From an uncultured Bacilli bacterium (GTDB lineage: Bacteria > Bacillota_I > Bacilli_A > RF39 > UBA660), in assembly GCA_944331915.1 (NCBI GenBank), contig CALVIR010000003.1, forward strand, positions 3,294-67,293: DNA of 64,000 nucleotides. The letters run 5' to 3'. Within the stretch, counting starts at the first letter, position 1. Each line of letters starts with the position of its first letter. The notes beneath the pieces are model-generated. The model was given only the letters and a program-made list of their open reading frames with translations. It ran no database searches and was not told the DNA's origin. Both the position numbers and the translations under genes were made by a program. Shown in pieces: positions 36,918 through 55,046 of this stretch.

Positions 36918-36963
36918 CTTTAAAGGAAAAGAATCACCAATTAACTCTTAGTGATTCATTTTT

Positions 36964-38934: not shown

Positions 38935-38989
38935 TTTTACACTTACTCCTAACCAATTAACTTATAATTATTATACTATATATTAAGTC

Positions 38990-39220
38990 TAATATGAAAA
39001 AAATCAAAGTTTTTAGGCTTTGAATCTTTCGTATTATTGCATTTCTTCCCAAGTTTTACCATCTAGTATTTTAGCGATTTCTTCGGTTGATGGTAATTTA
39101 TCTGTTTTTAAAATATCAGTTAAGTTAAATAATTTAGTTCGAAATAATGGGTATTTGCTCGCTTTGATAAAATTCGTTTTGACAAATTTATCAACAATAA
39201 AGTAATTGTGTTCAATATTT
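38990..39220 (-). pseudogene. duplicated 3'-terminal fragment (~59 codons) of gene 50752..51789; left copy of a 231-bp direct repeat
   Basis: About 95 % nucleotide identity to 50706..50936. It translates to ...VDKFVKTNFIKASKYPLFRTKLFNLTDILKTDKLPSTEEIAKILDGKTWEEMQ*. Confidence 0.8.
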
Positions 39221-39591
39221 TTATCATATCAATGACATTGTTATACCAATTTTACTTAAAGATAACAAAAATTGTTTAACAATCGGTATAATAATCGTTA
39301 AAATAGCAACATTATTGTACTCTTTTACAACTGTATTATGAAAAGCCTATGCAAATCTATCTGACGAAACAATTAAATCTTTATAGTTTTATTTATCATC
39401 AAACCAGTAGCATAAAAATATATGCTATCTTTGCTTTCGTTCGTAATTAAAGGATAAAACTCTTTAAAAGGCTTTTTTTATAAAACTTTGAAATATCAAT
39501 TTGATAATTAGATTTCTTCATTATAATCCTCTCTTACTTTAACAACTTTATAATATATATTTTGTTATATTAAAATAAATTATTTTTAGAA

Positions 39592-40233
39592 TTAAAGTTT
39601 CTTTTTTTTAATTTTATCTTTTCTGATACCATTACTATAATTTTGTAACACCTCTATTGTAGTTGGGGGAACTAATTGAGCAATTGTATTCCAATCATTA
39701 TTTTCAAGGGCATTTCTTACAGTTTTTGCACTAATAGATTGACCATTTCTATCAGTAAATCTAGGTATCTCAATAACCTCAATACCATATAAAGGTAAAT
39801 TATTTTTTAATTCTCTATTATATGATGCAGTAATAATATCAGTTTTTTCTTCTCCTACAAATCTTTTTTTAACATTTAATGTAGGAGCTATATAATCAGT
39901 AAATATTTCCCTATCTAGTGATACATCTATAGTAACATCAGTTTTTTCTTCTCTATTAAAGTACTCTGGAAAGATCATTGAGGAACCGAAAATTTTACCA
40001 CTAGGAATAACTGTAACATTAGAAAAATCTTTACAACCATTCTGCACCATTTTATATCTGTCATCAAACTTAAATACAGATTTATCATCTTGAACTACTA
40101 TAACAAATAATTCTTCTACTTGTTCAGAAGCATATTTTATTAAATTATAATGTCCATAAGTAAATGGATTACAATTCATTAGTATTGCACCATTAGGACC
40201 ATCTGGTATATCTAGACTCTTTAACATAGACAA
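39592..40233 (-). CDS. CitC-C-terminal-like nucleotidyltransferase (HxGH superfamily: adenylyl/cytidylyltransferase)
   Basis: NCNPFTYGHYNLIKYASEQV...LFVIVV resembles the [citrate lyase] ligase adenylyltransferase domain (NPFTxGH). Confidence 0.5.
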   Translation of the reverse strand: MSMLKSLDIPDGPNGAILMNCNPFTYGHYNLIKYASEQVEELFVIVVQDDKSVFKFDDRYKMVQNGCKDFSNVTVIPSGKIFGSSMIFPEYFNREEKTDVTIDVSLDREIFTDYIAPTLNVKKRFVGEEKTDIITASYNRELKNNLPLYGIEVIEIPRFTDRNGQSISAKTVRNALENNDWNTIAQLVPPTTIEVLQNYSNGIRKDKIKKKKL

Positions 40234-41663
40234 ATATTCATCAATAAATTTATTATTTGAAAATACATTTCTTTTTTGACTTTTTTTACAGGAATTATAC
40301 TTTCTTTATTTTGAGGATTAATTGTTAATAAGTTTTTCTTAATTTTATCATATATATAATCAGCAATATAACCATTTGCAATATGATTACAATGAGCAGG
40401 TTTATCAAGAAAATAATTGTGTAAAGTATTATTATTAAAAACAGGTAATAAGGTTTCTACATCAGTAAATCCTAATCTAGCAAGTTTTTCTTTTTCATCT
40501 GTTGATATAATAAAAATCATTTTATCGCCATGTTTTATATTTACATTGTCAGCAATTCTAACTTGTTCAGGTAATTCCATAGCTCTTAAACCATAATTAT
40601 TAACTGAATAATCCATATTATTAACATTAACTTTTCTTTGCAAGTAACTTGCTATAGTATGTTTATCATCTACTAAAGCACCATATACCATACAAGGACC
40701 GAATATATTAATATCAAATGCATAATCAAAACTCTTATCTGTAGTATATCTAATTCCATTAATACTTTTACAAAAATCATTATCAGAATCTGCTAATCTG
40801 CAAATGCCATTTTTTAGTATAGTTCCAGGAGATAAATTTTCCTTGTCTATATAATCTTCAGTAAATAAATCCCCCATAACTGTTTCTACTAAATTTCTTA
40901 TTTCAGGATCATTCATATAGTTACTAAGGTAATATATATAATTAACTTTAGCCTTCATTCTCAATTGTTCTACAAATGTTAATTCTGTAAATTGTTCATT
41001 ATTAGGAAATTCAAACACATAAGTTTCAAAAGATTGACCTTTTAAAAAACTATTAACAAAATAGTATATTTCTGCCTCATTACATAATTCATTTATATTT
41101 AATATACTCGAAGATAAGTCATTATCAAATCTACAATACCTATTTATTTCTTGTTTTAAATCCATCGAAAATAAATCTGTATCAATTAATAATGATTTTT
41201 CCTCTAAAATAGAACTTAAATAATTATCATAATCAATAGGAATAATAGAGGTAGAGAATTCATTTCCATAGACATTTATATAATTAAATAATTCTTGTGA
41301 TAACCCACCTCTAACAAAAACCTTTTTCGGTTTTCTACTTCTTAAATAATTAATAATTTTATCATTATTAGCATATAAACATTTCCATCTAGTTGAATCA
41401 ATTGATGTATTCTTCCATTCACTATTGTCTTTATTATTTTTTTCTTTTGTATATATAGCCAATTCATCAATTGTAATTTTTAAACTACTATCATTACGAA
41501 TACTATTTATAAAAGAATCATAAGTTATAAATTGCTCATCATTCAAGGCTACAATTGATTCTTGATTTTGCAAAAATATATTAATTAATTTATGTTTTAA
41601 ATTAATATCGGATTCACTTATATGAATTACACTATTTTCTTTATTCATTACTATCCCCCTCAA
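40221..41663 (-). CDS. hypothetical protein (480 aa)
   Basis: I recognise no family. It is soluble and sits inside the island operon. Confidence 0.5.
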   Translation of the reverse strand: MRGIVMNKENSVIHISESDINLKHKLINIFLQNQESIVALNDEQFITYDSFINSIRNDSSLKITIDELAIYTKEKNNKDNSEWKNTSIDSTRWKCLYANNDKIINYLRSRKPKKVFVRGGLSQELFNYINVYGNEFSTSIIPIDYDNYLSSILEEKSLLIDTDLFSMDLKQEINRYCRFDNDLSSSILNINELCNEAEIYYFVNSFLKGQSFETYVFEFPNNEQFTELTFVEQLRMKAKVNYIYYLSNYMNDPEIRNLVETVMGDLFTEDYIDKENLSPGTILKNGICRLADSDNDFCKSINGIRYTTDKSFDYAFDINIFGPCMVYGALVDDKHTIASYLQRKVNVNNMDYSVNNYGLRAMELPEQVRIADNVNIKHGDKMIFIISTDEKEKLARLGFTDVETLLPVFNNNTLHNYFLDKPAHCNHIANGYIADYIYDKIKKNLLTINPQNKESIIPVKKVKKEMYFQIINLLMNICLC

Positions 41664-41672
41664 CTTTAAATA

Positions 41673-42425
41673 TTATTCATTAATATTTTTCAACAAAAAA
41701 TTAACAATTTCATTATCATAATTATATAGTTCGTGTTTCCCATCTTCAATAGTTGTCAATTTTAAATTATTCTTCTTACAAAAATCACTAATATCTTTAT
41801 AAAGAACTGTCTTATCTGCTGTTCCATGAATTATTGAAATATTTTGAAACTCATAATTTTTAACAGCATTATCGCCATTTTTAAATTGAAGATAAGCATC
41901 TTTAGATATTTTAATGTTATTATACAAAGGCATAAATTCATTAGTATTAAAATAATCAAGTGATATTCCTGATTTATGTTCCATAATCTCACAAAAATTA
42001 ATAGCCGGACACATTAACATTGTTTTTTCTATATTTTTATTATTCTGCATTAACTTATTTAAAATCACAAAACCACCAAAACTACAGCCAAACAAATATA
42101 TAGGTACATTATACTTTGTTTTTACATATGTAATAATTTCTTCTAGATAGGTTATACACAAACTTAAATTAAAAAGTGAAAAATCTGTTTTATCTTCTCC
42201 ATGACCAGGAAAGTCAAAAGAAATAATACCAATTTTATTTTTTAATAAATCATCATAAAATCTTGTTGCCCATGTTTTGTTGCTACCTAACCCATGACAA
42301 TAAATTATTATTTTATTCATATTATCATGAGGTATGGCACTAAAAGTATTAATTTTATCATTAATTAAATAATTAAATTTAACTCTTAAATCATTTTTTG
42401 CCTTTTCAATAATCTTTTCGTTCAT
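41673..42425 (-). CDS. alpha/beta-fold hydrolase
   Basis: HGLGSNK..., the nucleophile elbow GCSFGG, and a C-terminal Asp/His. Confidence 0.65.
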   Translation of the reverse strand: MNEKIIEKAKNDLRVKFNYLINDKINTFSAIPHDNMNKIIIYCHGLGSNKTWATRFYDDLLKNKIGIISFDFPGHGEDKTDFSLFNLSLCITYLEEIITYVKTKYNVPIYLFGCSFGGFVILNKLMQNNKNIEKTMLMCPAINFCEIMEHKSGISLDYFNTNEFMPLYNNIKISKDAYLQFKNGDNAVKNYEFQNISIIHGTADKTVLYKDISDFCKKNNLKLTTIEDGKHELYNYDNEIVNFLLKNINE

Positions 42426-42455
42426 AAGTAATCCTCTTTTCCATCACTAATTATA

Positions 42456-43268
42456 TCATAACTTTTTAATATATTTTTCAAATGTTTCTTTATTAGGATA
42501 ATCTGTATTATCTAATTCATAATGCAACTTCTCATAGTCATAATCAACTATATTTTCTGTAAGAATAATTTCATTATTAACATTTTCTAAAACATAATAC
42601 ACTGCTTGTTTATCAATCGCTACACCTGTTCCATTAAGTGAATAAAAATCTATATTATCTTTTGTATGTTTTCTAAAGAAATGATAATGTCCATAAATTA
42701 TACCATTGTATTCATCTACCTTTTTTCCTCCAAATAATGGATCATTATTTGCTGATATTAAAAGTGGTGTTTGATTAGTAGAAAACCTCATATCTTGTGG
42801 TGTATTAGTTTCAAAAAAAGAGCTAACATCTTCCCCATTATATTTCCATACACCAGAATAATCATATCGTACATCAATAGGAAAATGACACAATGCGATT
42901 TTTTGATTACCAAGTTCAATGTCTATTGAATGAGGCATTCTCTGTAATGCACAAATTTGTTTACTTGTCAATGCTTCTCTTGTCCATACAGCATTATAAT
43001 AACGTGCAATATTGTGTTTTTTTAAATAATCAAAACTATCAGCACCAAATATTACATATTCTTCAGCATTTCCTAGAATATTTATAATATTATTTTCTAA
43101 AATTAACTCTAAACATTCACTAGGATGATTACCAAGTCCAATAACATCCCCTAAAGAATAAATTGTCTTTATATTATTATTTTTTATGTCCATAAGAACT
43201 GCTTTTAATGCTTCTAAATTTGCATGAACATCTGATATCAATGCTATCTTTTCTTGCATAGCACACAC
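42456..43268 (-). CDS. calcineurin-like metallophosphoesterase
   Basis: IALISDVHANLEAL ... LGDVIGLG ... GNAEEYV are MPP signature blocks. Confidence 0.65.
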   Translation of the reverse strand: MCAMQEKIALISDVHANLEALKAVLMDIKNNNIKTIYSLGDVIGLGNHPSECLELILENNIINILGNAEEYVIFGADSFDYLKKHNIARYYNAVWTREALTSKQICALQRMPHSIDIELGNQKIALCHFPIDVRYDYSGVWKYNGEDVSSFFETNTPQDMRFSTNQTPLLISANNDPLFGGKKVDEYNGIIYGHYHFFRKHTKDNIDFYSLNGTGVAIDKQAVYYVLENVNNEIILTENIVDYDYEKLHYELDNTDYPNKETFEKYIKKL

Positions 43269-43330
43269 CTCTTTTCTGTTGATATTTTGTTTATATTATG
43301 TTAATATATACCATCAAGGAAGTGGTATAT

Positions 43331-43822
43331 ATGATAATTGTCGAAGGATTAGATGGTTGTGGAAAAACAACTTTAATAACTAATTTAGCCAAAGAAGGAA
43401 AACAATTAGTAATTCCAAACAATGACTTTGAAAATTTTTATAATAAATATGTAGATACTTTTGAGAGATCTTCAATTAATTCAATAATGGATCGTTCTTT
43501 TATAAGTGTAATGGTTTATGGAAAAGTATTAAGTAATAAAACAAGAATTTCTGAACAAGATTATCTAAAGTTACTTGAATTATACACTAAAAACAAACCT
43601 AGTATTATATATTTATATGCACCACAAGAATTACTATTGGAAAGACGAAAAGATGATAGAAGTGATAGATTAGTATTATTGCATTTATATAAATCACTAT
43701 TAGAAGAATTTGATTATAGACTAGAGCAAGCAAGTAATTTTATGCCAGTTTACAAAATTAATACAGCTAATTACAACGAACAACAAACTTTTGAACAAAC
43801 CAAGAAATTAATTAAACTTTAA
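43331..43822 (+). CDS. P-loop nucleoside-monophosphate kinase, thymidylate-kinase-like
   Basis: IIVEGLDGCGKTTLI (compare the Tmk FEGIDGSGKTT) and DRSFISVMVYG (compare DRYxxSxxAYQ). I chose the 43331 start because of the AGGAAG RBS; the 43298 start in the ORF track is also possible. Confidence 0.6.
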   Translation: MIIVEGLDGCGKTTLITNLAKEGKQLVIPNNDFENFYNKYVDTFERSSINSIMDRSFISVMVYGKVLSNKTRISEQDYLKLLELYTKNKPSIIYLYAPQELLLERRKDDRSDRLVLLHLYKSLLEEFDYRLEQASNFMPVYKINTANYNEQQTFEQTKKLIKL

Positions 43823-45081
43823 TTTCTTTTTTTAATTAGACTCTTTGCATAATTTGGAATAGTAATTGAGCTTATAATACTAGAATCATATGTCGTATTT
43901 TGATGCCTATCAATTTCAAATGAAGGCTTTAAGGCAATTTTTAATAATTGTTCAATTGATAATTCACTTTGCATTAATATTGCTTTATCATAATTATCAG
44001 AAAAATCTCTATTTATTTCAGAGCGAGGAAAAAAAGCAATTTTTAAATTATCTTTATCCTGAAACAGAGACTCTAAATAATTCTCTATATATTTCTTAAT
44101 GTAATCACTATCAGTTGCAAGTACATCATATTGCGTTAATAGTGCATTTATATTCTTGATACAAGCATTCAAATCTCTCTGAATAAATGCTGTTCTATCA
44201 AATACATTTTCATTTAACATATAATTTCCATTGCTAACAAGCCTTGACATAAAAACAGGTGATAATACAGAATAATAATAAGCAGCACCAAAATTATCAG
44301 TAGTGAAAAAGTTAGGATTTTGTTGGTAACTCCAATTTTGTTGAAAAACACCATTCATATTATAATTCCTAAAAATATTATCTATTTTTAACATTTCGCT
44401 TGTATCGCAACAATTTAAATCACCAGAAAGTCCATATTTTAAAATTTGATTTTCAAATCGATTATTAAAACCATGAAAACAATATCCTTTATCTATAAAA
44501 TTCTGCTTTAATGTTATTAAGCATTTATCTTTTTTACCATCATTTTTTGAAACTATATTTTTAAATAAAACATTGTCACATCTATACAATAAATCTTCAA
44601 AACTTAATGATACTTTGCATTTTTTTATAATTTCATCTAAATACTTATCTATAAATTTATAATCATGAATTTTATCTTGATTCATAATCAGAAAACAATA
44701 TATTTTTTGTAAAAGTAAAGCTTGTAAAAATAATTGTGTATCTGCCAAAGCAGTAACATTAACACCTATTTTTCTTAAATCAAAACTAAAATTTCTACTC
44801 TGAATAATTTGTAAAATTTCTTGTATTTTCTCACTATTTAATAATTTTTCAAATTGTTTAACAAAGGCTACATCATTTTCTTGGTAATTATGATATATTT
44901 TCATATCATCTTGTATATCTATTTTTTTCAAATGTTTATGTTTACTAATTTCACTAACATATTTTTTTAACTCACTATCACTTATTTGATATTTATGACA
45001 TATACTATCAAATTTTTCTTGGGAAAGTTCGATATCACATTCATCTGTAACCATTTTAGAAATTAAATCATATAAATTCAT
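43819..45081 (-). CDS. hypothetical protein (420 aa)
   Basis: I recognise no family. Confidence 0.5.
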   Translation of the reverse strand: MNLYDLISKMVTDECDIELSQEKFDSICHKYQISDSELKKYVSEISKHKHLKKIDIQDDMKIYHNYQENDVAFVKQFEKLLNSEKIQEILQIIQSRNFSFDLRKIGVNVTALADTQLFLQALLLQKIYCFLIMNQDKIHDYKFIDKYLDEIIKKCKVSLSFEDLLYRCDNVLFKNIVSKNDGKKDKCLITLKQNFIDKGYCFHGFNNRFENQILKYGLSGDLNCCDTSEMLKIDNIFRNYNMNGVFQQNWSYQQNPNFFTTDNFGAAYYYSVLSPVFMSRLVSNGNYMLNENVFDRTAFIQRDLNACIKNINALLTQYDVLATDSDYIKKYIENYLESLFQDKDNLKIAFFPRSEINRDFSDNYDKAILMQSELSIEQLLKIALKPSFEIDRHQNTTYDSSIISSITIPNYAKSLIKKRN

Positions 45082-45542
45082 AGCAAATCTCCATATTCAG
45101 TAAGATATAACTCTAATGCTTTTCTTTGATAAGGTAATTCTAAGTAGTCTAATGCATTATTTATATCTATTAAAACTAATTCTGATCCTATTTCTAAAGG
45201 CTCAACTATATCTTCTTCTATATCTACTAAAAAAATATGTGCTAGTGATTCCATATGCTTTTTATTTCTAGTAAACCAAAAACAGTCTATAGAACAAAAA
45301 TCTTTAATTGTTTTTACTTTACAACCACTTTCTTCTAAAAATTCTCTATATAAACATTCTTGAAATGTCTCACCAGTTTCTTTACCTCCACCTATTAATG
45401 ACACTTCTTCATTTTTTTTAGTCAAATATATTTTTTTATCTTTAACATAAATGCCAAAACAAGTTTCACGGAAATCATATTTAATATTTTTATCTTTAAT
45501 TCCTATTTGTACTTTTTTCATTAGTCCTCCCATACTTTCCAA
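45078..45542 (-). CDS. NUDIX hydrolase
   Basis: Nudix box GGGKETGETFQECLYREFLEESG. Confidence 0.75.
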   Translation of the reverse strand: MESMGGLMKKVQIGIKDKNIKYDFRETCFGIYVKDKKIYLTKKNEEVSLIGGGKETGETFQECLYREFLEESGCKVKTIKDFCSIDCFWFTRNKKHMESLAHIFLVDIEEDIVEPLEIGSELVLIDINNALDYLELPYQRKALELYLTEYGDLL

Positions 45543-46300
45543 GGTGCTTTATCAGCCTTAATTAATTTATTCAAATATTCTCTTTCACTTTGAAAATCCA
45601 TACATTGCCAAAAGCCTAAATGCTTATATGCAGAAAGTTGTTTATTTTCCACTAATTTTTCCAAAATTTCTTTTTCAAAGGATGCAGAATCAGGAGTCAA
45701 ATATTTTAATATTTCTTTATTAACAACCATAAATCCACCATTAATCCATTCATCCTCTTTTAAAAATTTTTCTCTAAAATATTTGACATTTGTATCCTCT
45801 AATTCAACAACACCAAATCGTTCTTCTCTTTTAACAACTGTAATAGTTGCAAGAGACTTTTGTTTCTTATGAAATTCATATAAATCTTTAATATCTATAT
45901 CTGATACTGCATCAGCATAAGTCAGAAAGAATGAATCGTCATCATCATCTAAATATTTTTCAATTCGTTTTAATCTGCCACCTGTTAAAGTATTCAAGCC
46001 TGTATCTACTAAAGTAATATTCCAGTCCTCACTATTATTATTCAATATCTTTAGTTCTTGATTCTTAAAATTAATACTAATATCTTTCTTCTGATTCATT
46101 AAATCTAAAAAATATTTTTTAAAATCCTCTTGTTTATATCCTAAACATAATATAAAATCTTTAACGCCATAGTGATAATACATTTTCATAATATGCCAAA
46201 CAATAGGCATATCCCCAACAGTTACAAGTGGTTTTGGAGTAGTATCGCTCTCTAATTTTATCCTGCTACCCTTACCGCCTGCAAAAATAACACATTTCAT
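45521..46300 (-). CDS. rfbF: glucose-1-phosphate cytidylyltransferase (RfbF/DdhA-like)
   Basis: MKCVIFAGGKGSRI...TPKPLV..G.MPIVWHIMKMYYHYGVKDFILCLGYK...WNITLVDTGLNTLTGGRLKR is near-collinear with RfbF. Confidence 0.8.
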   Translation of the reverse strand: MKCVIFAGGKGSRIKLESDTTPKPLVTVGDMPIVWHIMKMYYHYGVKDFILCLGYKQEDFKKYFLDLMNQKKDISINFKNQELKILNNNSEDWNITLVDTGLNTLTGGRLKRIEKYLDDDDDSFFLTYADAVSDIDIKDLYEFHKKQKSLATITVVKREERFGVVELEDTNVKYFREKFLKEDEWINGGFMVVNKEILKYLTPDSASFEKEILEKLVENKQLSAYKHLGFWQCMDFQSEREYLNKLIKADKAPWKVWED

Positions 46301-46317
46301 ATAAAATCCCCCTTTAC

Positions 46318-47997
46318 TTAAATTTTTAAAATTGTTGCATTATTTATAGATGTATTCCAATAATAATCATTTTCTTTCTTTGCAACTACAATTTTAATGC
46401 CTAGTTTTTCAGTCAAAAATGAAATTTCATTAAAATTCAATTCTAAATCCTTAATAACTACTGTTCTATCTATAAAATCAATTTTATCTATATCAATGTT
46501 TTTGCCAATCTTTTCTACTAAAAAAACAATATACTTTTTCTCTGGAAACTTAAAATTATCGTATTTTTCTTTACAACGATTTCGCTGAACTAATGGGCAA
46601 TTATTACAATTAATACATATATCAGTATTATAGAAAAATTTTCTATCAGGCTGTCCTAATGCATAGCCTAATGCACAACTTGTAGTTTGAAAAATAGGAT
46701 AATCTTTGTTATTTACTAAATCATTCCATAGGTAATCGTATGCTTCTTTATTCCATACATTATCAGATTGTAATGCCTCTTTACGGTTATTCTTTAAAGC
46801 ATCCCATTCTATATTATCTATAATATCATCTGTAGTTTTTAAACCTATTGCAACAGAAGCAATACAATATTTTTTTACAAAATTGTATATTTTTTTTACA
46901 TCTTCCTTTTTAGAATTTTGTGGAATAAAAGGTCTCCAATAATGAATTATCTTCTTTCCTTTTTCTGATAATCTAATAAAATTATTTTCAATTATCTTTT
47001 TATTTACTCCCAATTCGATATCTTTATCTAATCCTGAATAACTTAAGAAAAATAAAAAATTATGACCTCGTTTCTCATATTTATCAATAAAGTCAATAAA
47101 ATCTTCTGGAATTTTACACTTTGTTATAAAAACTATAGGATTTTTTATTTCTCTTTTCATTAATATTTCTATCAATTGTTTTAAATATTCTACATTATCA
47201 ACAGTAGAAAATGCATCAGTTTGAGAAAATAAACATAAAGGCATATCTTCAATATAAAATTTACTTGATAACAATAAATCAACTGCTTTTTCAGGACTTA
47301 CTAACGTAATAGGCTGAATTCGATTCAATTCTCTTTCCTTTAAAAAACAATATTTACACTGTTTTGGACAACCTTGGATCGGATTTAATACTAGCCAAGT
47401 CGCATGAACATCTACGACTGGGTAAAACTTTGGAGTCTTTCTTTTCTCATAATTATCTAAAAACTTTGAAGCATCTAAAATCATTTTTTTAAATTCATCA
47501 GACAATTTTAAATCTAAATCATAAGCAATAGAAAAAACAATTTCAAATAGTCTAGCTATATTAAAATATAAAAAATCTTCTTCTTTTGCATACCCATATC
47601 TTATTTTATAATGTCTATAATCTTTAATTTCTAATACTTTTTCAGATACTTGACCATAAACTGTATTAAAACTTAATATTGCTTCTGCCACATTTTCAAA
47701 TTTTATATAACTGTAATTATAATCATAATTTTGAAAATCTAAATCTAATTTCCAACACAAACTAATTAATTGTAAAACTACATCTGATAATTCATCACCC
47801 AAATCATTAATATTTCTTCCATTCTCACCGTAATTTTTATGTTTTGAAATTAAATAACTAAAATGACCTAATTGAACATTAAGTTCTGCTAATACAGTAA
47901 TGGCATCCCATTCCTTATTTTCAGTAATTTTAAATCTTTCTTTTAATTTAATAGCATTATCATAATTATCTTTCAAAAATACTTTAATATCTTCCAT
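46318..47997 (-). CDS. fusion protein: N-terminal MazG-like NTP pyrophosphohydrolase domain plus radical SAM domain with C-terminal auxiliary Cys cluster
   Basis: N-domain: LGDELSDVVLQLISLCWKLDLD (MazG EExGDxLxQ motif). From aa ~200: NPIQGCPKQCKYCF (Cx3Cx2C, SplB/COG1533-like). C-terminus: CINCNNCP...C ferredoxin-like motif. Confidence 0.6.
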   Translation of the reverse strand: MEDIKVFLKDNYDNAIKLKERFKITENKEWDAITVLAELNVQLGHFSYLISKHKNYGENGRNINDLGDELSDVVLQLISLCWKLDLDFQNYDYNYSYIKFENVAEAILSFNTVYGQVSEKVLEIKDYRHYKIRYGYAKEEDFLYFNIARLFEIVFSIAYDLDLKLSDEFKKMILDASKFLDNYEKRKTPKFYPVVDVHATWLVLNPIQGCPKQCKYCFLKERELNRIQPITLVSPEKAVDLLLSSKFYIEDMPLCLFSQTDAFSTVDNVEYLKQLIEILMKREIKNPIVFITKCKIPEDFIDFIDKYEKRGHNFLFFLSYSGLDKDIELGVNKKIIENNFIRLSEKGKKIIHYWRPFIPQNSKKEDVKKIYNFVKKYCIASVAIGLKTTDDIIDNIEWDALKNNRKEALQSDNVWNKEAYDYLWNDLVNNKDYPIFQTTSCALGYALGQPDRKFFYNTDICINCNNCPLVQRNRCKEKYDNFKFPEKKYIVFLVEKIGKNIDIDKIDFIDRTVVIKDLELNFNEISFLTEKLGIKIVVAKKENDYYWNTSINNATILKI

Positions 47998-47998
47998 T

Positions 47999-48859
47999 TT
48001 ATCTCCATCCTTTTTCTCGTAATGTTAACTGTTTTTCATAAGATTCTTTTTCAGGACTATTTAGTGCATTTACTTTATGTCTAATTACACTTAAATAATA
48101 ATTAATTAAATTATTCTTTATAGTGCCATCTTGTACACCTAAAATTATATCTTTATAAAATTTATCACAATGTGATAAAACATCATATGCTTTTTTTATT
48201 TGATTATCATAGTTATCATTTCTCATAATACTATTTTGACTTTTATAATAATGATATCCAATATAAGGAATACTAGAAACACTTTTTGCTTTACTTAAAA
48301 TTAAAGACGTAAGTGCAAAATCTTCTTGTAACATTCCAACAGGAAATTTAAAATTATTTTTTTCCCAAAAGCTAAAATCATAAGCATATAGCCAAGACGG
48401 GCTATATATTTCAAAGTTTTTTGCAAACTTATTTAATGCTTCTATCCCATTAATATTATAAAACTCATCTGTAATATATTTTTCATAAACTTTGTTGTCA
48501 TTATCAACCATAATACCTTGGTATCGAATCATATCATTTTCATTATCAATAATAGATAACTTTTCAAGTAAACTTTTTTCGATCCAATCATCAACATCAA
48601 CAAAAATTATTGCATCGCCATTAACTTTTGATAATCCATAATTTCTTACCTTACTTATATCTTCAAATGAAACTTCATAATATTTAATGTTTGGAAAATT
48701 AAAGTCAGAATGAATAATATCTGCAGTATGATCTGTGCTACTATCATTTATAAATATAATTTCATAATCTGAATATGTCTGTTGTCTAATTGAATTTAAA
48801 CATCTAGAAATATATTCTTGACCATTATGTGATGGAACAATAATACTAAATTTTTTCAT
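47999..48859 (-). CDS. family 2 glycosyltransferase
   Basis: FSIIVPSHNGQEYISRCLNSIRQQTYSDYEIIFINDSSTD ... FVDVDD. Confidence 0.8.
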   Translation of the reverse strand: MKKFSIIVPSHNGQEYISRCLNSIRQQTYSDYEIIFINDSSTDHTADIIHSDFNFPNIKYYEVSFEDISKVRNYGLSKVNGDAIIFVDVDDWIEKSLLEKLSIIDNENDMIRYQGIMVDNDNKVYEKYITDEFYNINGIEALNKFAKNFEIYSPSWLYAYDFSFWEKNNFKFPVGMLQEDFALTSLILSKAKSVSSIPYIGYHYYKSQNSIMRNDNYDNQIKKAYDVLSHCDKFYKDIILGVQDGTIKNNLINYYLSVIRHKVNALNSPEKESYEKQLTLREKGWR

Positions 48860-49394
48860 TTTTCCTCCTAATAAAGATAAAAAGACAAACGGATGAATGC
48901 TTGTCTTTAGTTAAATTTATTATATTGCAGAATTAACCATCCGGTTTATCTGCCGATTATACTATCATACAATTAACTAAATGTCAAAGGTCATAGCAAA
49001 ACTGTGGGTGTAAATTTTTTCTATTTCATTCCAGCGATTACTTTCATACATATATCTTAATGTAATCACATAATTAGTACCTTTAACACTCCATCTCATA
49101 CCTGATTATTTTAATCTAAGTAGTACTACAGTTTTATTAGAACTTTCTGCTGCACCACTACTTACAAACCAACCATTGTGTTCATAAGTAGAATAATCTA
49201 TTTCATTTTTGTTATTCTCTAAATAAACTGGCAAATTACAAACAGTCTTAGGCATTGTTATGTTACTATATTTATTCAATTATTTAACTATTAAGTTATA
49301 TTCTCTAGAATAACAATATCCAATTATTTGTTCTTTAACTTTCTCTACCTTTTTAATAACTAATGACCATACGGTGCATGGTCATTAGTCTAGG

Positions 49395-49970
49395 GTTTAA
49401 TTCCCCGTTGCTTGCAACGTAAGGCCGAGCGTAGTATTATAAATACGGAGTGAGGGCGATGTTATGGAAGAGAGTCAATATCTATATTTGTCGCACAACG
49501 TAAGTAATCTTGTTTACCACATTGTATGTCCAGCAAAATACCGTCGTGTAGTATTTGATGAAACAGTGGATGAACATCTTCGACAAATTTGTCTTGAGAT
49601 AGAGAAACGTTATGACTATATTGTTTTTCTAGAGATAGGTACGGATAAAGATCATATACATTTTCTAGTTCAAAGCACACCAAACTATGCACCTAGTAAA
49701 ATAGTTCAAATAATAAAGAGCATAACAGCAAGACAAATTTTTGTCGAATGTCCTCAAGTAAAGAAACAACTATGGGGAGGACAGTTTTGTTCAGACGGTT
49801 ATTTTGTGGCTACAGTAGGCAAAAATCAAAATGAATCGGTAATAAAAGAATATGTAAAAAATCAAGGTAAACAAGATGCGGAATACAAGCAGTTATATTT
49901 GAAATTTCAACAGCAAAAATAACATCGCTTTGGGAAGATACCCCGTAGCTTGCTGCGGGGAGTATTCATT
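49395..49970 (+). mobile_element. IS200-type insertion sequence (tnpA only) with terminal hairpins
   Basis: Left hairpin cgttgc-ttg-gcaacg (49407..49420); right hairpin ccccgtagc-ttg-gctgcgggg (49941..49960). Confidence 0.6.
49464..49922 (+). CDS. tnpA: IS200/IS605-family Y1 (HUH) transposase TnpA
   Basis: A 152-aa protein with VYHIVCPAKYRR...HIHFLVQSTPNYAPSKIVQIIKSITARQIF, the classic IS200 TnpA. Confidence 0.85.
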   Translation: MEESQYLYLSHNVSNLVYHIVCPAKYRRVVFDETVDEHLRQICLEIEKRYDYIVFLEIGTDKDHIHFLVQSTPNYAPSKIVQIIKSITARQIFVECPQVKKQLWGGQFCSDGYFVATVGKNQNESVIKEYVKNQGKQDAEYKQLYLKFQQQK

Positions 49971-49984
49971 ATCATCATTACAAA

Positions 49985-50376
49985 TAAATTTACCACAATC
50001 GTATATGTTTCTATTATATGATATTTATCTAATATTCGAATAGCTTCAGGAAAGAGTTCGTCTATCATATTAATAATCCAAGTGGCACCATCAGAAATAA
50101 AAACTATTTCTTCACATTCCCAATATTTTAGTTCTAATGCTTTGGCAAATACTAATATTTTAAAAGTTTCAACATTACCTATGTAAGAAACTTATTCTTT
50201 GTGATTAATAATATTAGACTTGTCTTTTCTTTTATACATATCAGCTCAGTATCAATAAAGAAAATATCTAGTTTATTTTCTTTCCAAGTGGCATCATTTT
50301 TATCTTCTATTCTATTATTTACACTTGCACCATCTGCTCGAATATATAAAGTACCTTTCTTTTTAGTTATAGTCAT
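49985..50376 (-). pseudogene. decayed DDE transposase fragments (ISLre2/UPF0236-like), frame-disrupted
   Basis: Translations ...LYIRADGASVNNR...DATWKEN... and ...VFISDGATWIINMIDELFPEAIRILDKYHIIE... are interrupted by stops. Confidence 0.4.
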
Positions 50377-50705
50377 ATATATTAGTATGATTATTCCAAA
50401 TTTCTAAAGCCTTATTATAGTTATATATCATAAAATAATTTGCCTACATATCTAGTTATATTAATTACAGTAGCATAAGATATTTTAATACCATATACCC
50501 TATATATAATCTCACTAGCTTTTTTAATGATACTTTAAATGGTAGTTTATCTATTTCTAGATATTCATCTAAAGGGGTAATTAATTTACTTTTCAGATTA
50601 TATTTATTATCTTGTATTAAATTGTCACGGAAAGAAATTTACACCCATAGTTACTTGGTTTAGAAAATTTCTATAAGCAGCAATGCGTAAGTTAGTAACT
50701 TTTGT

Positions 50706-50936
50706 ATAATATGAAAAAAAATCAAAGTTTTTAGGCTTTGAATCTTTCGTATTATAGCATTTCTTCCCAAGTCTTACCATCTAGTATTTTAGCGATTTCT
50801 TCGGTTGATGGTAATTTATCTGTTTTTAAAATATCAGTTAAGTTAAACAATTTTGTTCGAAATAATGGGTATTTGCTCGCTTTGATAAAATTCGTTTTGA
50901 CAAATTTATCGACAATAAAGTAATTGTGTTCAATAT
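50706..50936. repeat. right copy of the 231-bp direct repeat (the 3' end of intact gene 50752..51789)
   Basis: About 95 % identical to 38990..39220, in the same orientation. Confidence 0.8.
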
Positions 50937-51789
50937 TTCTTAAATCATAGCCGTAGTTACTAGATCTTTTGATTGCTTCTTCTATATTTTTAATCTCATT
51001 AGGTAGTGGATCTTCTCCTTCAACAGTAGAATAAACTAATTTATCATCTTTATAAACGGCTTTAATAATCTTTTTTATTTTACCGATAGCATTAATTCTT
51101 TTATCTTTATAAAGACCAATATAGCCATGATCAGTAAAGCCTCGTGATGATTGATCATAATACATATTTAAGTCTATATTATCTTCAAAGGTAGTACCTG
51201 AGGTGATAGCGCGAAGCCATTTATCTTTATCTGGTAATAAATCTTCATATAAACAGTAGTCTTTAAAGTCCTCTAAGATAGCAAAAATATCAGTATCTCG
51301 TTCATCAATAATATCTTCCATGGCTTTGATTAGATCGTTGAAAGTAATATTAATATGTTTTATAGCCATTTTATTTTTTTGGTTGTATTCATCTAGTTTT
51401 ACTTGAAAACGGTCATAAAAATCTTTTTTCATCGGTTTAGGATCTAGTGTTAATAATACTTTTATTTCTTCATTATTAAACTTAGTTAGATGGTTTAATA
51501 GTTGATCTAGATCAAATTCATTATATAATTTTGTTTCAACAACTACTTTAAAACTCTGCTGACTAATAACAGCATCAGGTACACTTTTGTTATTTGATGA
51601 TTGTAATTCAAAACTAAGTTCTGGGGTAGAATTTTCCTTTAAAATTAAATTATTAAGCATTAGAAAGAACTTATCAGGATTATAATTATATAACCGTGAT
51701 AACATTAACATCGTATTAGCGGTATCAACATTTTCTTTTGAATGATATCTTTGAAAATAGTGTATTTTCATTTTCTTACTCCTCTTCAC
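50752..51789 (-). CDS. hypothetical protein with putative PD-(D/E)xK nuclease motif
   Basis: A 345-aa protein. PDAVISQQSFKVVVETK gives a D-x12-E-x-K pattern. The C-terminal domain is unassigned. Confidence 0.45.
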   Translation of the reverse strand: MKRSKKMKIHYFQRYHSKENVDTANTMLMLSRLYNYNPDKFFLMLNNLILKENSTPELSFELQSSNNKSVPDAVISQQSFKVVVETKLYNEFDLDQLLNHLTKFNNEEIKVLLTLDPKPMKKDFYDRFQVKLDEYNQKNKMAIKHINITFNDLIKAMEDIIDERDTDIFAILEDFKDYCLYEDLLPDKDKWLRAITSGTTFEDNIDLNMYYDQSSRGFTDHGYIGLYKDKRINAIGKIKKIIKAVYKDDKLVYSTVEGEDPLPNEIKNIEEAIKRSSNYGYDLRNIEHNYFIVDKFVKTNFIKASKYPLFRTKLFNLTDILKTDKLPSTEEIAKILDGKTWEEML

Positions 51790-51918
51790 TTTTTATACAA
51801 TTAATTATAACATTGCTCTTTTTTATAGTAAAGATAAAGACGGTTTACTATTAGTTAAAATTGCTATTTTAAAGAAAAAATGGTATAATCTTACGAAGAA
51901 ACAAGGGGGATACTAGCA

Positions 51919-52677: not shown

Positions 52678-52719
52678 TAATTAACATCTAATGCATAATT
52701 TACAACTAGAGGTGTTATA

Positions 52720-53520: not shown

Positions 53521-53550
53521 AAAAGGCAGAAGATTTGGTTCTTCTGTCTT

Positions 53551-54623: not shown

Positions 54624-54683
54624 TTTATCTTCACCTCTATTACTAGTTTATGCTTAAGTTACTAATAGAGATTAAGTTTATGC

Positions 54684-55022: not shown

Positions 55023-55046
55023 CTCAACTTTAGTATAGCGAAATTA

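What the first reader, a model, noticed from the sequence alone, without database searches (positions are those of the whole stretch)
38990..50936. About 11.5-kb island bounded by 231-bp direct repeats that duplicate the 3' end of the flanking gene
38990..39220 and 50706..50936 are ~95 % identical and lie in the same orientation. The right copy is the genuine 3' end of the 345-aa gene 50752..51789; the left copy is an orphan fragment. This duplicated-target-3'-end signature is typical of elements that integrated into, or recombined at, the end of a gene. The interval carries a coherent operon of unusual enzymes (39592..48859) and then IS debris (48990..50660). No integrase is present, so the island is either ancient and degraded, or it arrived by homologous recombination. 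The ~5 % divergence between the repeats also argues for age.
Basis: seen in the sequence. Interest (0 to 1): 0.65.

Follow-up and report, generated by a model that had tools for sequence, protein, structure and literature searches.

The report
Recently spreading integrase-less genomic island
An 11.5-kb block of foreign genes sits at the end of a nuclease-like gene in a chicken-gut bacterium, flanked by two copies of that gene's last 231 bases; some strains lack it, and it is almost identical in strains whose surrounding DNA differs by 3-9 %, so it is a young, still-moving island, not an old relic.

Summary
The repeat is real: 38997-39220 and 50715-50938 match at 219 of 224 bases (98 %, not 95 %). 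The right copy is the true 3' end plus terminator of a 339-aa gene. The left copy is an untranslatable orphan. The organism is Candidatus Onthousia faecavium or a close relative.

Two metagenome contigs show the predicted empty site, with the 339-aa gene directly next to the M4 peptidase gene. The cargo has 24.6 % GC against 29.9 % elsewhere in the window.

Between lineages the island interior differs by about 0.2 %, while the flanks differ by 2-9 %. The step falls at the repeats on both sides. So the island spread recently as a discrete unit.

Its ends are broken DNA: a truncated AMP-binding pseudogene on the left and an ISKra4-like remnant with a nested IS200 on the right. There is no integrase in the island or within about 10 kb.

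The ten-gene cassette of soluble enzymes recurs in at least five other contexts, one of them beside type IV secretion genes.

Best reading: a decayed fragment of a conjugative element that enters and leaves by recombination within the 231-bp homology. RecA is favoured and a recombinase acting in trans is not excluded. The cargo's function is unknown.

The parts
36964..38934 (-). M4 (thermolysin-type) peptidase gene; chromosomal left flank
   Evidence: Pfam FTP, Peptidase_M4 and Peptidase_M4_C. It directly abuts the 339-aa gene in the empty-site contigs L017 and L018. It differs by 5 % between lineages.
38990..39220 (-). Left direct repeat: orphan copy of the last 61 codons, stop and terminator of the 339-aa gene. 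It keeps the native downstream flank towards the M4 gene.
   Evidence: In-frame stop upstream and no start codon. In the MAG lineage this copy carries an 8-nt insertion and 16 substitutions.
39227..39530 (-). Truncated, frameshifted 5' remnant (about 105 codons) of an AMP-binding (acyl-adenylate-forming) enzyme gene. This is the island's left end and it abuts the orphan repeat.
   Evidence: tblastn with the intact 606-aa gene of L027 gives 66 % identity over residues 52-104, with an in-frame stop and a frameshift. blastn homology to L027 runs up to 39223.
39592..41663 (-). Gene for a 686-692-aa protein: unknown N-terminal ~470 aa plus a C-terminal citrate-lyase-ligase-like HIGH nucleotidyltransferase domain. 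In this window a 1-nt deletion splits it into ORFs 40221-41663 and 39592-40233.
   Evidence: Pfam Citrate_ly_lig E=2.6e-56. The gene is intact (685-692 aa) in L015, L023, L027, L049, L054 and L057. The frameshift lies in an A-run. The N-terminal part has no match in Pfam or PDB.
41673..42425 (-). alpha/beta hydrolase, 250 aa
   Evidence: Pfam Hydrolase_4 and Abhydrolase_1. It is fused to the NUDIX domain in the L051 variant.
42456..43268 (-). Metallophosphoesterase, 270 aa
   Evidence: Pfam Metallophos_2. Absent from the L049 and L051 variants.
43298..43822 (+). P-loop deoxynucleoside-kinase-like kinase, 174 aa; the only cassette gene on the other strand
   Evidence: Pfam dNK E=2.3e-7. Same position and orientation in L023, L027 and L049.
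43819..45081 (-). 420-aa protein of an uncharacterised, rare family
   Evidence: No hit in Pfam, NCBIfam, PHROGs or PDB. Only 126 relatives at E<=1e-3 among 1.84 billion cluster representatives, and ten of them tested carry no Pfam domain.
45078..45542 (-). NUDIX hydrolase, 154 aa
   Evidence: Pfam NUDIX.
45521..46300 (-). Glucose-1-phosphate cytidylyltransferase (makes CDP-glucose), 259 aa
   Evidence: NCBIfam TIGR02623 scores 306.8 bits, above its cut-off of 300.25. GC3 is 0.196 against 0.11-0.15 for the rest of the cassette. The gene is missing from the L023 and L049 versions.
46318..47997 (-). 559-aa fusion: N-terminal all-helical domain (weakly MazG-like) plus a radical SAM domain
   Evidence: Pfam Radical_SAM is below its cut-off. 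The CxxxCxxC cysteines C210, C214 and C217 are invariant or nearly so. The AlphaFold model has pLDDT 94. Foldseek finds a generic radical-SAM fold (PFL-AE, viperin, SPL). The N-terminal domain gives only weak profile hits to MazG-type pyrophosphohydrolases (E=0.05-0.8) and none in Pfam.
47999..48859 (-). Family-2 glycosyltransferase, 286 aa; first gene of the cassette
   Evidence: Pfam Glycos_transf_2 E=1.7e-26. This exact protein is indexed in 53 blocks of the public collection.
48860..48987 (-). Upstream (promoter) region that travels with the cassette
   Evidence: Homology to the L023-type cassette ends at 48987, 12 nt from the IS terminus.
49000..50652 (-). Degraded ISKra4/ISLre2-like DDE insertion sequence with 21-nt terminal inverted repeats and no target-site duplication. 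It is interrupted by the IS200.
   Evidence: Inverted repeats 49000-49020 and 50632-50652 (I7). The reading frames are broken. tblastn hits ISKra4-family transposases at 28-31 %. Pfam DDE_Tnp_ISL3 is weak. The flanking 8-mers differ.
49359..49969 (+). IS200 (IS200/IS605 family) with an intact Y1 transposase at 49464-49922; a recent, polymorphic insertion
   Evidence: Pfam Y1_Tnp E=5.5e-36. Absent at this site from L014, L055 and L056 and present in L006 and L057.
50653..50705 (.). 53-nt island-side spacer between the IS remnant and the right repeat
   Evidence: Not present at the empty site. Together with the IS remnant (49970-50705) it differs at only 1 position (0.14 %) between lineages.
50706..50936 (-). 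Right direct repeat: the functional 3' end and terminator of the 339-aa gene
50752..51771 (-). Target gene: 339-aa PD-(D/E)xK-nuclease-superfamily protein. Members of this family usually ride on mobile elements.
   Evidence: P65, D66, E79 and K81 are invariant. Foldseek against BFVD gives E=3.6e-11 to a phage 'PD-(D/E)XK nuclease superfamily protein'. The weak PDB hits are all nucleases of that fold. The nearest relatives outside this species are about 60 % identical, in Lachnospiraceae and Blautia. The family occurs in 17 proviral contigs, in several of them close to genes whose N-termini read like large serine recombinases (by eye).
51919..52677 (+). Divergently transcribed 252-aa gene of unknown function. 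Together with the 339-aa gene it forms a block that is 97-99 % conserved in all lineages.
   Evidence: No family hits. Identity profiles.

Best explanation
This is a horizontally acquired genomic island with no integrase of its own. It runs from 39221 to 50705 (11,485 bp) plus one copy of the 231-bp repeat, in Candidatus Onthousia faecavium-like gut bacteria.

It is a broken-off piece of a larger mobile, probably conjugative, element. One end is a truncated AMP-binding gene. The other is an ISKra4-like remnant that appears to have deleted whatever lay upstream of the cargo.

The island carries a copy of the last 61 codons and terminator of a chromosomal PD-(D/E)xK-nuclease-family gene. Recombination between that copy and the chromosomal gene end inserts the island Campbell-fashion. 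The gene stays intact, the displaced native 3' end is left as an orphan next to the M4 peptidase gene, and the island is flanked by direct repeats. The same repeats allow precise loss.

Shown:
- the insertion and the empty site;
- the foreign composition;
- the near-identity of the island across diverged lineages, with the identity step at the repeats;
- exchange of polymorphisms between the two repeat copies;
- the mobility of the cargo cassette between genomes.

Inferred:
- that the crossover is made by general (RecA-type) homologous recombination and not by a dedicated recombinase;
- that the parent element was conjugative.

The cargo is a ten-gene operon of soluble enzymes: a GT2 glycosyltransferase, a MazG-like/radical-SAM fusion, a CDP-glucose synthase, a NUDIX hydrolase, a kinase, a phosphoesterase, an esterase, a CitC-like adenylating enzyme and two unknowns. 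It most likely builds or tailors an intracellular glycosylated nucleotide-derived compound. Its product is not known.
For: Repeat and orphan.

Empty site: in L017 and L018 the order is ZIP, 252-aa gene, 339-aa gene, 106 nt, M4 peptidase. The orphan keeps the native downstream flank and the right copy keeps the native gene body. The right flank of the empty L017 is 99.2 % identical to that of the occupied L055.

Composition:
- cassette GC 24.6 % vs 29.9 +/- 0.6 % (minimum 28.2 %) for same-size windows elsewhere;
- tetranucleotide distance 0.289 vs 0.107 +/- 0.016;
- GC3 0.11-0.15 vs 0.17-0.25.

Divergence, window vs L054:
- M4 flank 5.0 %;
- island 40351-49262 0.22 %;
- IS remnant and spacer 0.14 %;
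- rest of the 339-aa gene 2.75 %;
- beyond 52.7 kb 8-9 %.
The same step is seen in the MAG (L014, L015) and in L053, L055, L056 and L058.

Broken ends: the AMP-binding remnant, and the IS remnant without a target-site duplication sitting 12 nt from the end of cassette homology.

The cassette elsewhere:
- 90 % nucleotide identity in a 23 %-GC genome (L023);
- 72.6 % next to VirD4, TrbL, PrgI and VirB4-type genes and followed by the intact AMP-binding gene (L027-29);
- also L049, L051 and L060.

In favour of homologous recombination:
- 231 bp at 98 % is far longer than the identity segments I recall for integrase att sites (my own knowledge);
- the inner edge of the left repeat is an illegitimate junction to a pseudogene, not an organised arm;
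- no recombinase lies nearby;
- polymorphic sites are swapped between the left and right copies in near-identical samples (L002 vs L006).
Against: - The SNP pattern across 21 repeat copies also fits a single fixed crossover region (about 39142-39179 / 50860-50897), which is what a site-specific recombinase acting in trans would give.
- No circular or excised form was observed. Transfer between cells is inferred only from sequence identity.
- Only draft MAG and metagenome contigs were available, so a recombinase elsewhere in the genome cannot be excluded.
- The link to a conjugative element rests on a 73 %-identical cassette in another organism. No transfer genes or oriT were found here.
- Metagenome assemblers can join strains at repeats. 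The pattern does, however, recur in assemblies from several projects, with different contig-naming styles.
Confidence: 0.6

Rival explanations
1. CIME-like remnant. An integrative (conjugative or mobilizable) element once integrated site-specifically into the 3' end of the 339-aa gene, and the repeats are attL and attR. The element lost its integrase and transfer genes. It now moves only when a related element supplies the recombinase in trans or carries it along in cis.
For: - The direct repeats reconstitute the 3' end of a protein gene, which is the usual target layout for ICEs and IMEs of Bacillota. CIMEs are defined as decayed elements that keep attL and attR (PMC5704250).
- A homologous cassette sits beside type IV secretion genes in L027-29.
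- The allele pattern in 21 repeat copies is compatible with one fixed crossover region.
- The island moves as a discrete unit that ends at the repeats.
Against: - 231 bp of 98 % identity is much longer than the att identity segments I recall (my own knowledge).
- The inner edge of the left repeat is fused directly to a truncated pseudogene.
- No recombinase lies in the island or within about 10 kb.
- Alleles on the supposedly island-side of the crossover are swapped between copies in some samples.
Confidence: 0.25
2. One illegitimate insertion event, for example a repair of staggered breaks 231 nt apart, duplicated the target once in an ancestor. The island then spread between lineages by ordinary homologous recombination of imported chromosomal DNA.
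For: - Both island ends are arbitrary broken sequences.
- No recombinase is present.
- Shared derived alleles in the left copies and in the right copies could be post-duplication mutations.
Against: - Recombination tracts from imported chromosomal fragments should end at varying distances out in the flanks. On the left side, and for the repeat itself on the right, identity drops at or within the repeats in every lineage examined.
- Four of the five differences between the two window copies are synonymous, and the three changes specific to the orphan copies are all synonymous. This hints that both copies diverged while still coding. The sample is small.
Confidence: 0.07
3. One reading: the island is old and vertically inherited, and the empty-site strains lost it by recombination between the repeats.
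For: - Precise deletion between 231-bp direct repeats would regenerate exactly the empty site that was found.
- The island is present in several lineages.
Against: - An old island should be as diverged as its flanks. It shows 0.1-0.2 % against 2-9 %, including in non-coding IS debris where selection cannot explain conservation.
- The junction with the AMP-binding remnant is younger than the about 1 % divergence from the L060 version, which is truncated elsewhere.
Confidence: 0.05
4. Assembly artefact: the repeat or the island's position results from mis-joining contigs of different strains or elements at a repeated sequence.
For: The data are MAG and metagenome assemblies. Several contigs break inside the repeat (L001, L003, L007, L009, L010).
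Against: - Each junction is read through in several independent assemblies from different projects.
- L054 spans ZIP to M4 peptidase in one contig.
- The empty and occupied forms are both internally consistent.
Confidence: 0.02

Closest known systems
CIMEs (cis-mobilizable elements) and other decayed ICE/IME remnants of Bacillota, such as the Streptococcus thermophilus elements at the 3' end of fda (example recalled from my own knowledge)
   Same: - Flanked by direct repeats that include the 3' end of a protein-coding target gene, which stays intact.
- No integrase or transfer genes.
- Carries cargo genes and IS debris.
- Present or absent among strains.
- Related cargo is found on an element with type IV secretion genes.
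   Different: - The repeats are 231 bp at 98 %, not the few tens of bp I recall for att repeats (my own knowledge).
- One repeat edge is an illegitimate fusion to a pseudogene.
- No cognate integrase or partner ICE has been identified.
- Movement may need only general homologous recombination.
Campbell-type (insertion-duplication) integration of a circular DNA through a cloned internal or 3' gene fragment, as with suicide plasmids
   Same: A single crossover in a few hundred bp of homology gives exactly this layout: two hybrid copies of the homology flanking the insert, one complete gene and one orphan fragment. It is reversible by recombination between the repeats.
   Different: This is a natural element that has spread through a wild population. 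The circular intermediate and its route between cells have not been observed.
Classical genomic islands (pathogenicity-island criteria)
   Same: Foreign base composition, direct repeats at the borders, IS elements, presence/absence polymorphism, and a coherent cargo operon.
   Different: It is not at a tRNA gene, it has no integrase, and the cargo is not a recognised virulence, resistance or defence function.
Nucleotide-sugar and radical-SAM tailoring clusters, such as CDP-glucose (RfbF) dependent dideoxyhexose O-antigen pathways or nucleoside-antibiotic pathways (the latter comparison is from my own knowledge)
   Same: The cargo has a bona fide glucose-1-phosphate cytidylyltransferase, GT2 glycosyltransferases, a radical SAM enzyme, nucleotide hydrolases, a kinase and adenylating enzymes.
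   Different: - No protein has a membrane segment, and there is no flippase, polymerase or exporter.
- No CDP-glucose dehydratase.
- Two of the ten proteins and one large domain belong to no described family.
- The cassette rides on mobile elements.

Membership tests
Genomic island (classical criteria) | Discrete block present in some strains and absent from close relatives at the same locus | tested here: met
   Empty site in L017 and L018. Occupied in the window, the MAG, L053-L059. The empty L017 is 99.2 % identical to the occupied L055 in the right flank.
Genomic island (classical criteria) | Base composition or codon usage differs from the host | tested here: met
   GC 24.6 % vs 29.9 +/- 0.6 %. 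The tetranucleotide distance is 2.7 times the mean and 2.0 times the maximum of control windows. GC3 is lower.
Genomic island (classical criteria) | Flanking direct repeats | tested here: met
   224-235 nt at 98 %.
Genomic island (classical criteria) | Own integrase, and insertion at a tRNA gene | tested here: not met
   No integrase by Pfam in the island or within about 10 kb. The nearest tRNA genes are at 58.9-59.1 kb.
CIME (decayed ICE/IME that keeps attL and attR) | [quoted passage not shown] | tested here: met
   None are present.
CIME (decayed ICE/IME that keeps attL and attR) | The flanking repeats are functional att sites of a site-specific recombinase | tested here: inconclusive
   The allele pattern fits a fixed crossover region but also fits homologous recombination with gene conversion. 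No recombinase is known.
CIME (decayed ICE/IME that keeps attL and attR) | Descent from an ICE or IME | tested here: inconclusive
   A homologous cassette with an intact AMP-binding gene lies beside T4SS genes in L027-29. No transfer-gene remnant is left in the window.
CIME (decayed ICE/IME that keeps attL and attR) | Mobilised in cis by an incoming element that integrates at one of its att sites | not testable with these tools
   This needs mating experiments or closed genomes that carry tandem elements.
Integrative and conjugative element (ICE) | Integrase, relaxase and a type IV secretion module | tested here: not met
   All are absent from 39221-50705.
Composite transposon | Two copies of the same IS bracketing the cargo | tested here: not met
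   There is only one ISKra4-like remnant, at one end, and no second copy in the window.
IS200/IS605 (the nested element 49359-49969) | Y1 (HUH) transposase, and presence/absence at a precise site | tested here: met
   Y1_Tnp E=5.5e-36. L014, L055 and L056 are contiguous across the site. Subterminal hairpins were seen by eye only.
Known anti-phage defence systems (PADLOC models) | Cargo or target proteins match defence-system models | tested here: not met
   Only weak hits of the kinase, the NUDIX protein and the 420-aa protein (the last to JetB, E=0.0024) to candidate families or generic domains. The 559-aa, 692-aa, 339-aa and 252-aa proteins have no hit.
Surface polysaccharide (O-antigen / capsule / teichoic acid) locus | Nucleotide-sugar synthase plus glycosyltransferases | tested here: met
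   TIGR02623 above its cut-off; GT2.
Surface polysaccharide (O-antigen / capsule / teichoic acid) locus | Membrane machinery (initiating transferase, flippase, polymerase or ABC exporter) | tested here: not met
   No 19-residue window above a Kyte-Doolittle score of 1.6 in any cassette protein. The ZIP transporter used as a control has 59 such windows.

The most novel reading that the evidence does not exclude
The cargo is a previously undescribed, mobile-element-borne pathway that makes or attaches a glycosylated nucleotide-derived group inside the cell. Possibilities are a modified nucleotide used in conflict with phages or plasmids, or a sugar modification of nucleic acid.

Its conserved core is a GT2 glycosyltransferase, a MazG-like/radical-SAM fusion, a NUDIX hydrolase, an alpha/beta hydrolase, a CitC-like adenylating enzyme and a sugar-1-phosphate nucleotidyltransferase. 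This core recurs across Bacillota. The radical-SAM domain's neighbourhood of MazG, sugar nucleotidyltransferase and glycosyltransferase recurs on one Streptomyces conjugative plasmid.

In addition, the island itself may represent a class of elements that need no recombinase. They would carry a gene-end 'homology cassette' and rely on host RecA to enter and leave.
Probability: 0.25. Interest if true: 0.7.

Novelty: new member of a known kind. Interest (0 to 1): 0.45.

Why it matters
This is a clean natural example of a gene block moving through a wild gut-bacterial population without an integrase of its own. The occupied and empty forms and the donor-like contexts are all visible in public metagenomes.

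If the crossover is made by host homologous recombination, islands can stay mobile after losing all their mobility genes, simply by carrying a copy of a target gene's end. That matters for how accessory genes persist and spread.

The cargo is a rare ten-enzyme cassette. The 559-aa search returned only 121 proteins at E<=0.001 among the 8,000 word-sharing candidates that were scored. The 420-aa family has 126 relatives among 1.84 billion cluster representatives. The cassette hops between genomes and sits beside conjugation genes elsewhere. It is therefore a concrete candidate for new nucleotide or sugar chemistry, or for a conflict system.

Tried and rejected
- An exact-sequence look-up of the 345-aa ORF product found nothing, because gene callers start the gene at the ATG and give 339 aa.
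- The single genome-contig scan returned only the species' own MAG, with no other Onthousia species.
- More distant M4 peptidase homologues (41 % identity, L020-22) were not syntenic and gave no information on the site.
- Rfam found nothing in 38-52.5 kb, and there is no tRNA gene at the borders.
- PADLOC, PHROGs and NCBIfam gave no system-level assignment for the cargo.
- Sequence and profile searches against PDB for the 420-aa protein and for the N-terminal 470 aa of the 692-aa protein gave only noise.
- The 559-aa model matched only the generic radical-SAM fold.
- The 559-aa protein has no relatives in phage genomes or IMG/VR, so a phage DNA-hypermodification origin is not supported.
- Literature searches for this combination of enzymes found no description.
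- No flanking direct repeats were found around the cassette in L023 or L027.
- I could not walk further along the L027 contig to find that element's ends or integrase, because look-ups are limited to window proteins and search hits.
- I tried to tell homologous from site-specific recombination using the SNP mosaic of 21 repeat copies. The pattern fits both.

Full report
**Observation**

A gapless comparison gives 38997-39220 against 50715-50938, 224 nt at 98 %, which is 219 of 224 identical. BLAST extends it to 38987-39220 against 50704-50938, 235 columns at 97.9 %, with a single 1-nt gap in the A-run. The quoted ~95 % is too low. No third copy exists in the window.

The right copy is the last 61 codons, the stop codon and the hairpin/T-run of the minus-strand gene 50752-51771. 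That gene is 339 aa from the ATG that gene callers use on other contigs; the 345-aa ORF starts at an upstream GTG. The left copy holds the same 61 codons in frame, with 60 of 61 residues identical. It has an in-frame stop three codons upstream of the homology and no start codon, so it is an orphan.

**Source and independent support**

The 339-aa protein located the locus in the chicken-gut MAG Candidatus Onthousia faecavium CHK195-6217. NCBI places the genus in Bacilli incertae sedis, and it was named in PMC8035907. Both junctions are read through in several independent metagenome assemblies (L002, L006, L011, L014, L015, L053). One 26.7-kb contig, L054, runs from the ZIP transporter gene through the 339-aa gene, the IS region and the whole cassette into the M4 peptidase gene. 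The arrangement is therefore not an assembly artefact.

**The empty site exists**

A look-up of an 89 %-identical M4 peptidase (P0122) returned contigs L017 and L018. In both the order is ZIP, 252-aa gene, 339-aa gene, 106 nt, M4 peptidase, with no island.

The alignment of the empty site with both junctions of the window and of the MAG shows two things. The orphan copy keeps the native downstream flank, from terminator to M4 promoter. The right copy keeps the native gene body. The inner flanks of both copies are island DNA. This is the layout expected for a single crossover between a circular element carrying the 231-bp segment and the chromosomal gene end.

The right flank of the empty L017 is 99.2 % identical to that of the occupied L055. 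Presence and absence therefore vary among close relatives.

**Anatomy of the island (39221-50705, 11,485 bp)**

- Left end. 39227-39530 is the first ~105 codons of an AMP-binding enzyme gene, now carrying a stop and a frameshift. It is 66 % identical to the intact 606-aa gene that follows the cassette in L027. It is fused directly to the orphan repeat.
- Cassette. The ten-gene cassette occupies 39592-48859, and its upstream region runs to 48987.
- IS remnant. 49000-50652 is a degraded ISKra4/ISLre2-like insertion sequence. It has 21-nt inverted repeats, broken reading frames and no target-site duplication.
- Nested IS200. 49359-49969 has an intact Y1 transposase. It is absent at that site in L014, L055 and L056.
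- Spacer. Fifty-three nt separate the IS remnant from the right repeat.
- Recombinases. No integrase or other recombinase lies in the island or within about 10 kb on either side. No tRNA gene or Rfam family lies at the borders.

**Composition**

| Measure | Cassette | Rest of window |
|---|---|---|
| GC | 24.6 % | 29.9 +/- 0.6 % (minimum 28.2 %), same-size windows |
| Tetranucleotide distance | 0.289 | 0.107 +/- 0.016 (maximum 0.14) |
| GC3 per gene | 0.11-0.15 | 0.17-0.25 in flanking genes |

The same cassette is also more AT-rich than its surroundings in L049 and L051. It matches its host only in L023, a 23 %-GC genome.

**The island is young and moves as a unit**

I compared the window with L054, a different lineage whose M4 peptidase is 667 aa.

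| Region | Coordinates | Differences |
|---|---|---|
| M4 flank | 38018-38989 | 5.0 % |
| Left repeat | 38990-39220 | 10 % (including indels) |
| Island interior | 40351-49262 | 0.22 % (20 in 8.9 kb) |
| Non-coding IS remnant plus spacer | 49970-50705 | 0.14 % |
| Right repeat | 50706-50936 | 1.7 % |
| Rest of the 339-aa gene | 50937-51771 | 2.75 % |
| 252-aa gene region | 51772-52700 | 1.9 % |
| Further right | 52701-58800 | 8-9 % |

Sliding identity profiles show the same step at the repeats for the MAG (L014, L015) and for L053, L055, L056 and L058. Selection cannot hold pseudogenes and IS debris at about 100 %. The island must therefore have a much more recent common ancestor than the chromosome around it. 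It has spread between lineages recently, always at this site, and the recombination end points lie at or within the repeats.

This contradicts the 'ancient and degraded' option.

**The repeats are not a clock**

Across 21 repeat copies, the left copies share alleles at their 5' (island-side) end, and the right copies share alleles at their 3' (island-side) end. This is what a reciprocal crossover between an island-borne copy and each lineage's own copy would give. The apparent exchange region is about 39142-39179 / 50860-50897.

In near-identical samples, two sites are swapped between the left and right copies (L002 against L006). The copies therefore keep exchanging sequence.

Four of the five differences between the window's two copies are synonymous. 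The three changes found only in the orphan copies are also synonymous. This hints that both copies diverged while still coding, but the sample is small.

The pattern fits both homologous recombination with conversion and a fixed site-specific crossover. I could not separate the two.

**The cargo is itself a mobile module**

The 559-aa protein has a graded series of relatives, from 91 % down to about 30 % identity. Only 121 proteins reached E<=0.001 among the 8,000 word-sharing candidates that were scored. The syntenic cassette occurs in these other contexts:

- L023-26: 90 % nucleotide identity, between FtsW/SpoVE-like and CotH/chitin-synthase-like genes on one side and a C39 peptidase gene on the other. 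It lacks the cytidylyltransferase gene.
- L027-29: 72.6 % identity, immediately after VirD4/TraG, TrbC, TrbL, PrgI and VirB4-type genes and two HTH genes. It is followed by the intact AMP-binding gene.
- L049: between housekeeping genes (PPDK and thymidine kinase on one side, PfkB and Smr on the other).
- L051: a variant with a HAD hydrolase, an acetyltransferase, two extra GT2 genes and a NUDIX/alpha-beta-hydrolase fusion.
- L060: 99 % identity, but with the AMP-binding remnant cut near codon 20 by an ISL3-like remnant, followed by HTH and Fic genes.

Because the window's version keeps 105 codons of the AMP-binding gene, it derives from an L027-like arrangement by truncation. L060 is truncated at a different point yet is 99 % identical. 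The fusion to the orphan repeat is therefore recent.

**What the cargo may do**

Assignments for the ten products:

- GT2 glycosyltransferase.
- 559-aa fusion. The radical SAM domain has nearly invariant CxxxCxxC cysteines, the model has pLDDT 94, and the fold match is generic radical SAM. The N-terminal helical domain gives only weak hits to MazG-type pyrophosphohydrolases and none in Pfam.
- Glucose-1-phosphate cytidylyltransferase, above the TIGR02623 cut-off.
- NUDIX hydrolase.
- 420-aa protein of a rare undescribed family: 126 relatives among 1.84 billion representatives, none of ten tested with a Pfam domain.
- dNK-like kinase.
- Metallophosphoesterase.
- alpha/beta hydrolase.
- 692-aa protein with a citrate-lyase-ligase-like adenylating domain (E=2.6e-56), counted as two ORFs in this window.

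None has a predicted membrane segment. There are no convincing defence-system hits and no phage relatives of the 559-aa protein.

Homologues of the radical-SAM domain occur on Streptomyces plasmids at 31-37 % identity. On plasmid pFRL6 the homologue sits in a run of genes for a MazG protein, dCTP and cytidine deaminases, a UTP-glucose-1-phosphate uridylyltransferase, a glycosyltransferase and a HAD hydrolase, next to Tra genes. A second plasmid shows a different set of sugar-handling neighbours.

My inference is a cytoplasmic pathway that glycosylates or otherwise tailors a nucleotide-derived substrate. I hold this with low confidence, and the product is unknown.

**The target gene**

The 339-aa protein has invariant P65, D66, E79 and K81. 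Its model has a significant fold match to a phage 'PD-(D/E)XK nuclease superfamily protein' (E=3.6e-11). The weak PDB matches are all nucleases of that fold.

Outside this species its closest relatives are about 60 % identical and come from Lachnospiraceae, Blautia and Eubacteriales bins. The family occurs in 17 IMG/VR proviral contigs. In several of these it lies a few genes from genes whose N-termini read like large serine recombinases; this was judged by eye and not checked with a profile.

The 339-aa/252-aa gene block is 97-99 % conserved in all lineages, including the empty-site one. The DNA beyond it is only 84-94 % identical. It looks like an older layer of acquired DNA at the same hot spot.

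**Mechanism and rivals**

The layout, the discrete unit of transfer, the 231-bp homology, the illegitimate inner junction, the absence of any recombinase and the inter-copy exchange favour Campbell-type insertion and excision by general homologous recombination. The substrate would be a fragment of a larger, probably conjugative, element.

A simple history is as follows. An element-borne homologue of the 339-aa gene recombined with the chromosomal copy. Deletions, one of them IS-mediated, then trimmed the cointegrate down to the present island.

The main rival is a CIME-like remnant served in trans by a site-specific recombinase (definition in PMC5704250). Less likely rivals are a one-off insertion at a staggered break followed by spread through flanking recombination, ancient vertical inheritance with loss, and an assembly artefact.

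**Verdict**

The age argument is refuted. As a kind, this is a genomic island or decayed integrative-element remnant, so it is a new member of a known kind. The points of interest are its apparent mobility without a recombinase and its rare, uncharacterised, repeatedly transferred enzyme cassette.

Noticed in passing
window 49359-49969; L057: The IS200 nested in the IS remnant looks active: its TnpA is intact and the insertion is polymorphic. In L057 the flanks are otherwise identical to the window, yet the IS200 copy at the same site differs at 14 positions. This suggests replacement or conversion from another genomic copy.
   Followed up: partly
about window 49264; L014 11897-12019, L054 9000-9595, L058, L059, L060: Other lineages carry a different Y1-transposase element (139 aa, opposite orientation) inserted about 95 nt away in the same ISKra4-like remnant. 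L055 and L056 have neither insertion. The island thus exists in three IS variants, and the remnant is a hot spot for IS200-family insertion.
   Followed up: partly
window 40042-40497: A patch of 16 differences, including the 1-nt deletion that splits the 692-aa gene, is private to this window. It is absent even from L057, which is otherwise identical. It could be a short recombination tract, a mutation cluster or an assembly error.
   Followed up: partly
window 45521-46300: The glucose-1-phosphate cytidylyltransferase gene has GC3 of 0.196 against 0.11-0.15 for its neighbours. It is missing from the L023 and L049 versions of the cassette and sits elsewhere in L051. It seems to be a separately gained or lost part of the cassette.
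   Followed up: partly
window 50937-52700 versus 52701-58800: The 339-aa/252-aa gene pair is 97-99 % identical in all lineages, including the empty-site one. Identity drops to 84-94 % from the ZIP gene onward. The pair looks like an earlier acquired module at the same locus.
   Followed up: partly
L016 2253-3507, L017 4774-6028, L018 3175-4429 (window equivalent 36917-36964): The empty-site lineage has two extra genes (268 aa and 143 aa, no Pfam hits) between the M4 peptidase and the amidase gene. The window lacks them. This is a second indel polymorphism close by.
   Followed up: no
window 53551-54623: A 243-aa protein matches phage endolysin/peptidase PHROGs. It is followed by a 113-aa ORF with a hydrophobic N-terminus that looks holin-like by eye. 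This may be a remnant of a prophage lysis module.
   Followed up: partly
window 33092-34048 and about 61767-62552: An Abi_2 (abortive-infection-like) gene lies 5 kb left of the island. An ADP-ribosylating-exotoxin-domain gene lies about 11 kb to the right; its Pfam assignment is from L006 and its coordinates are transferred from that contig.
   Followed up: no
L030 (Streptomyces sp. F12 plasmid pFRL6, 67.3-76.7 kb) and L031: Homologues of the radical-SAM domain on Streptomyces linear plasmids sit among nucleotide-handling or sugar-handling genes. On pFRL6 (L030) these are MazG, dCTP and cytidine deaminases, a methyltransferase, a sugar-1-phosphate uridylyltransferase, a glycosyltransferase and a HAD hydrolase, beside Tra genes. 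L031 shows a different set: GT4, aldolase and MurA. The association spans two phyla.
   Followed up: partly
window 43819-45081 (420-aa protein): The conserved core of this rare family has the consensus GYxFHGFNSxF...I...GL, then TDS..AY.YA and SP.YFS. The best, non-significant PDB profile hit is RNA 2'-phosphotransferase Tpt1, an ADP-ribosyltransferase fold (E=0.53). By eye the HG motif resembles that fold. This is a lead only.
   Followed up: partly
L060 9790-11322: The same cassette (99 % identical) occurs in a different left-hand context: an ISL3-like transposase remnant, an HTH gene and a Fic-domain gene. There is no orphan repeat or M4 gene in the part of the contig that was read. This may be a second insertion site or a donor element.
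   Followed up: partly
window 38986-38996: Between the orphan's terminator and the M4 promoter, the window lacks 13 nt that are present in the empty-site contigs and in the MAG.
   Followed up: no
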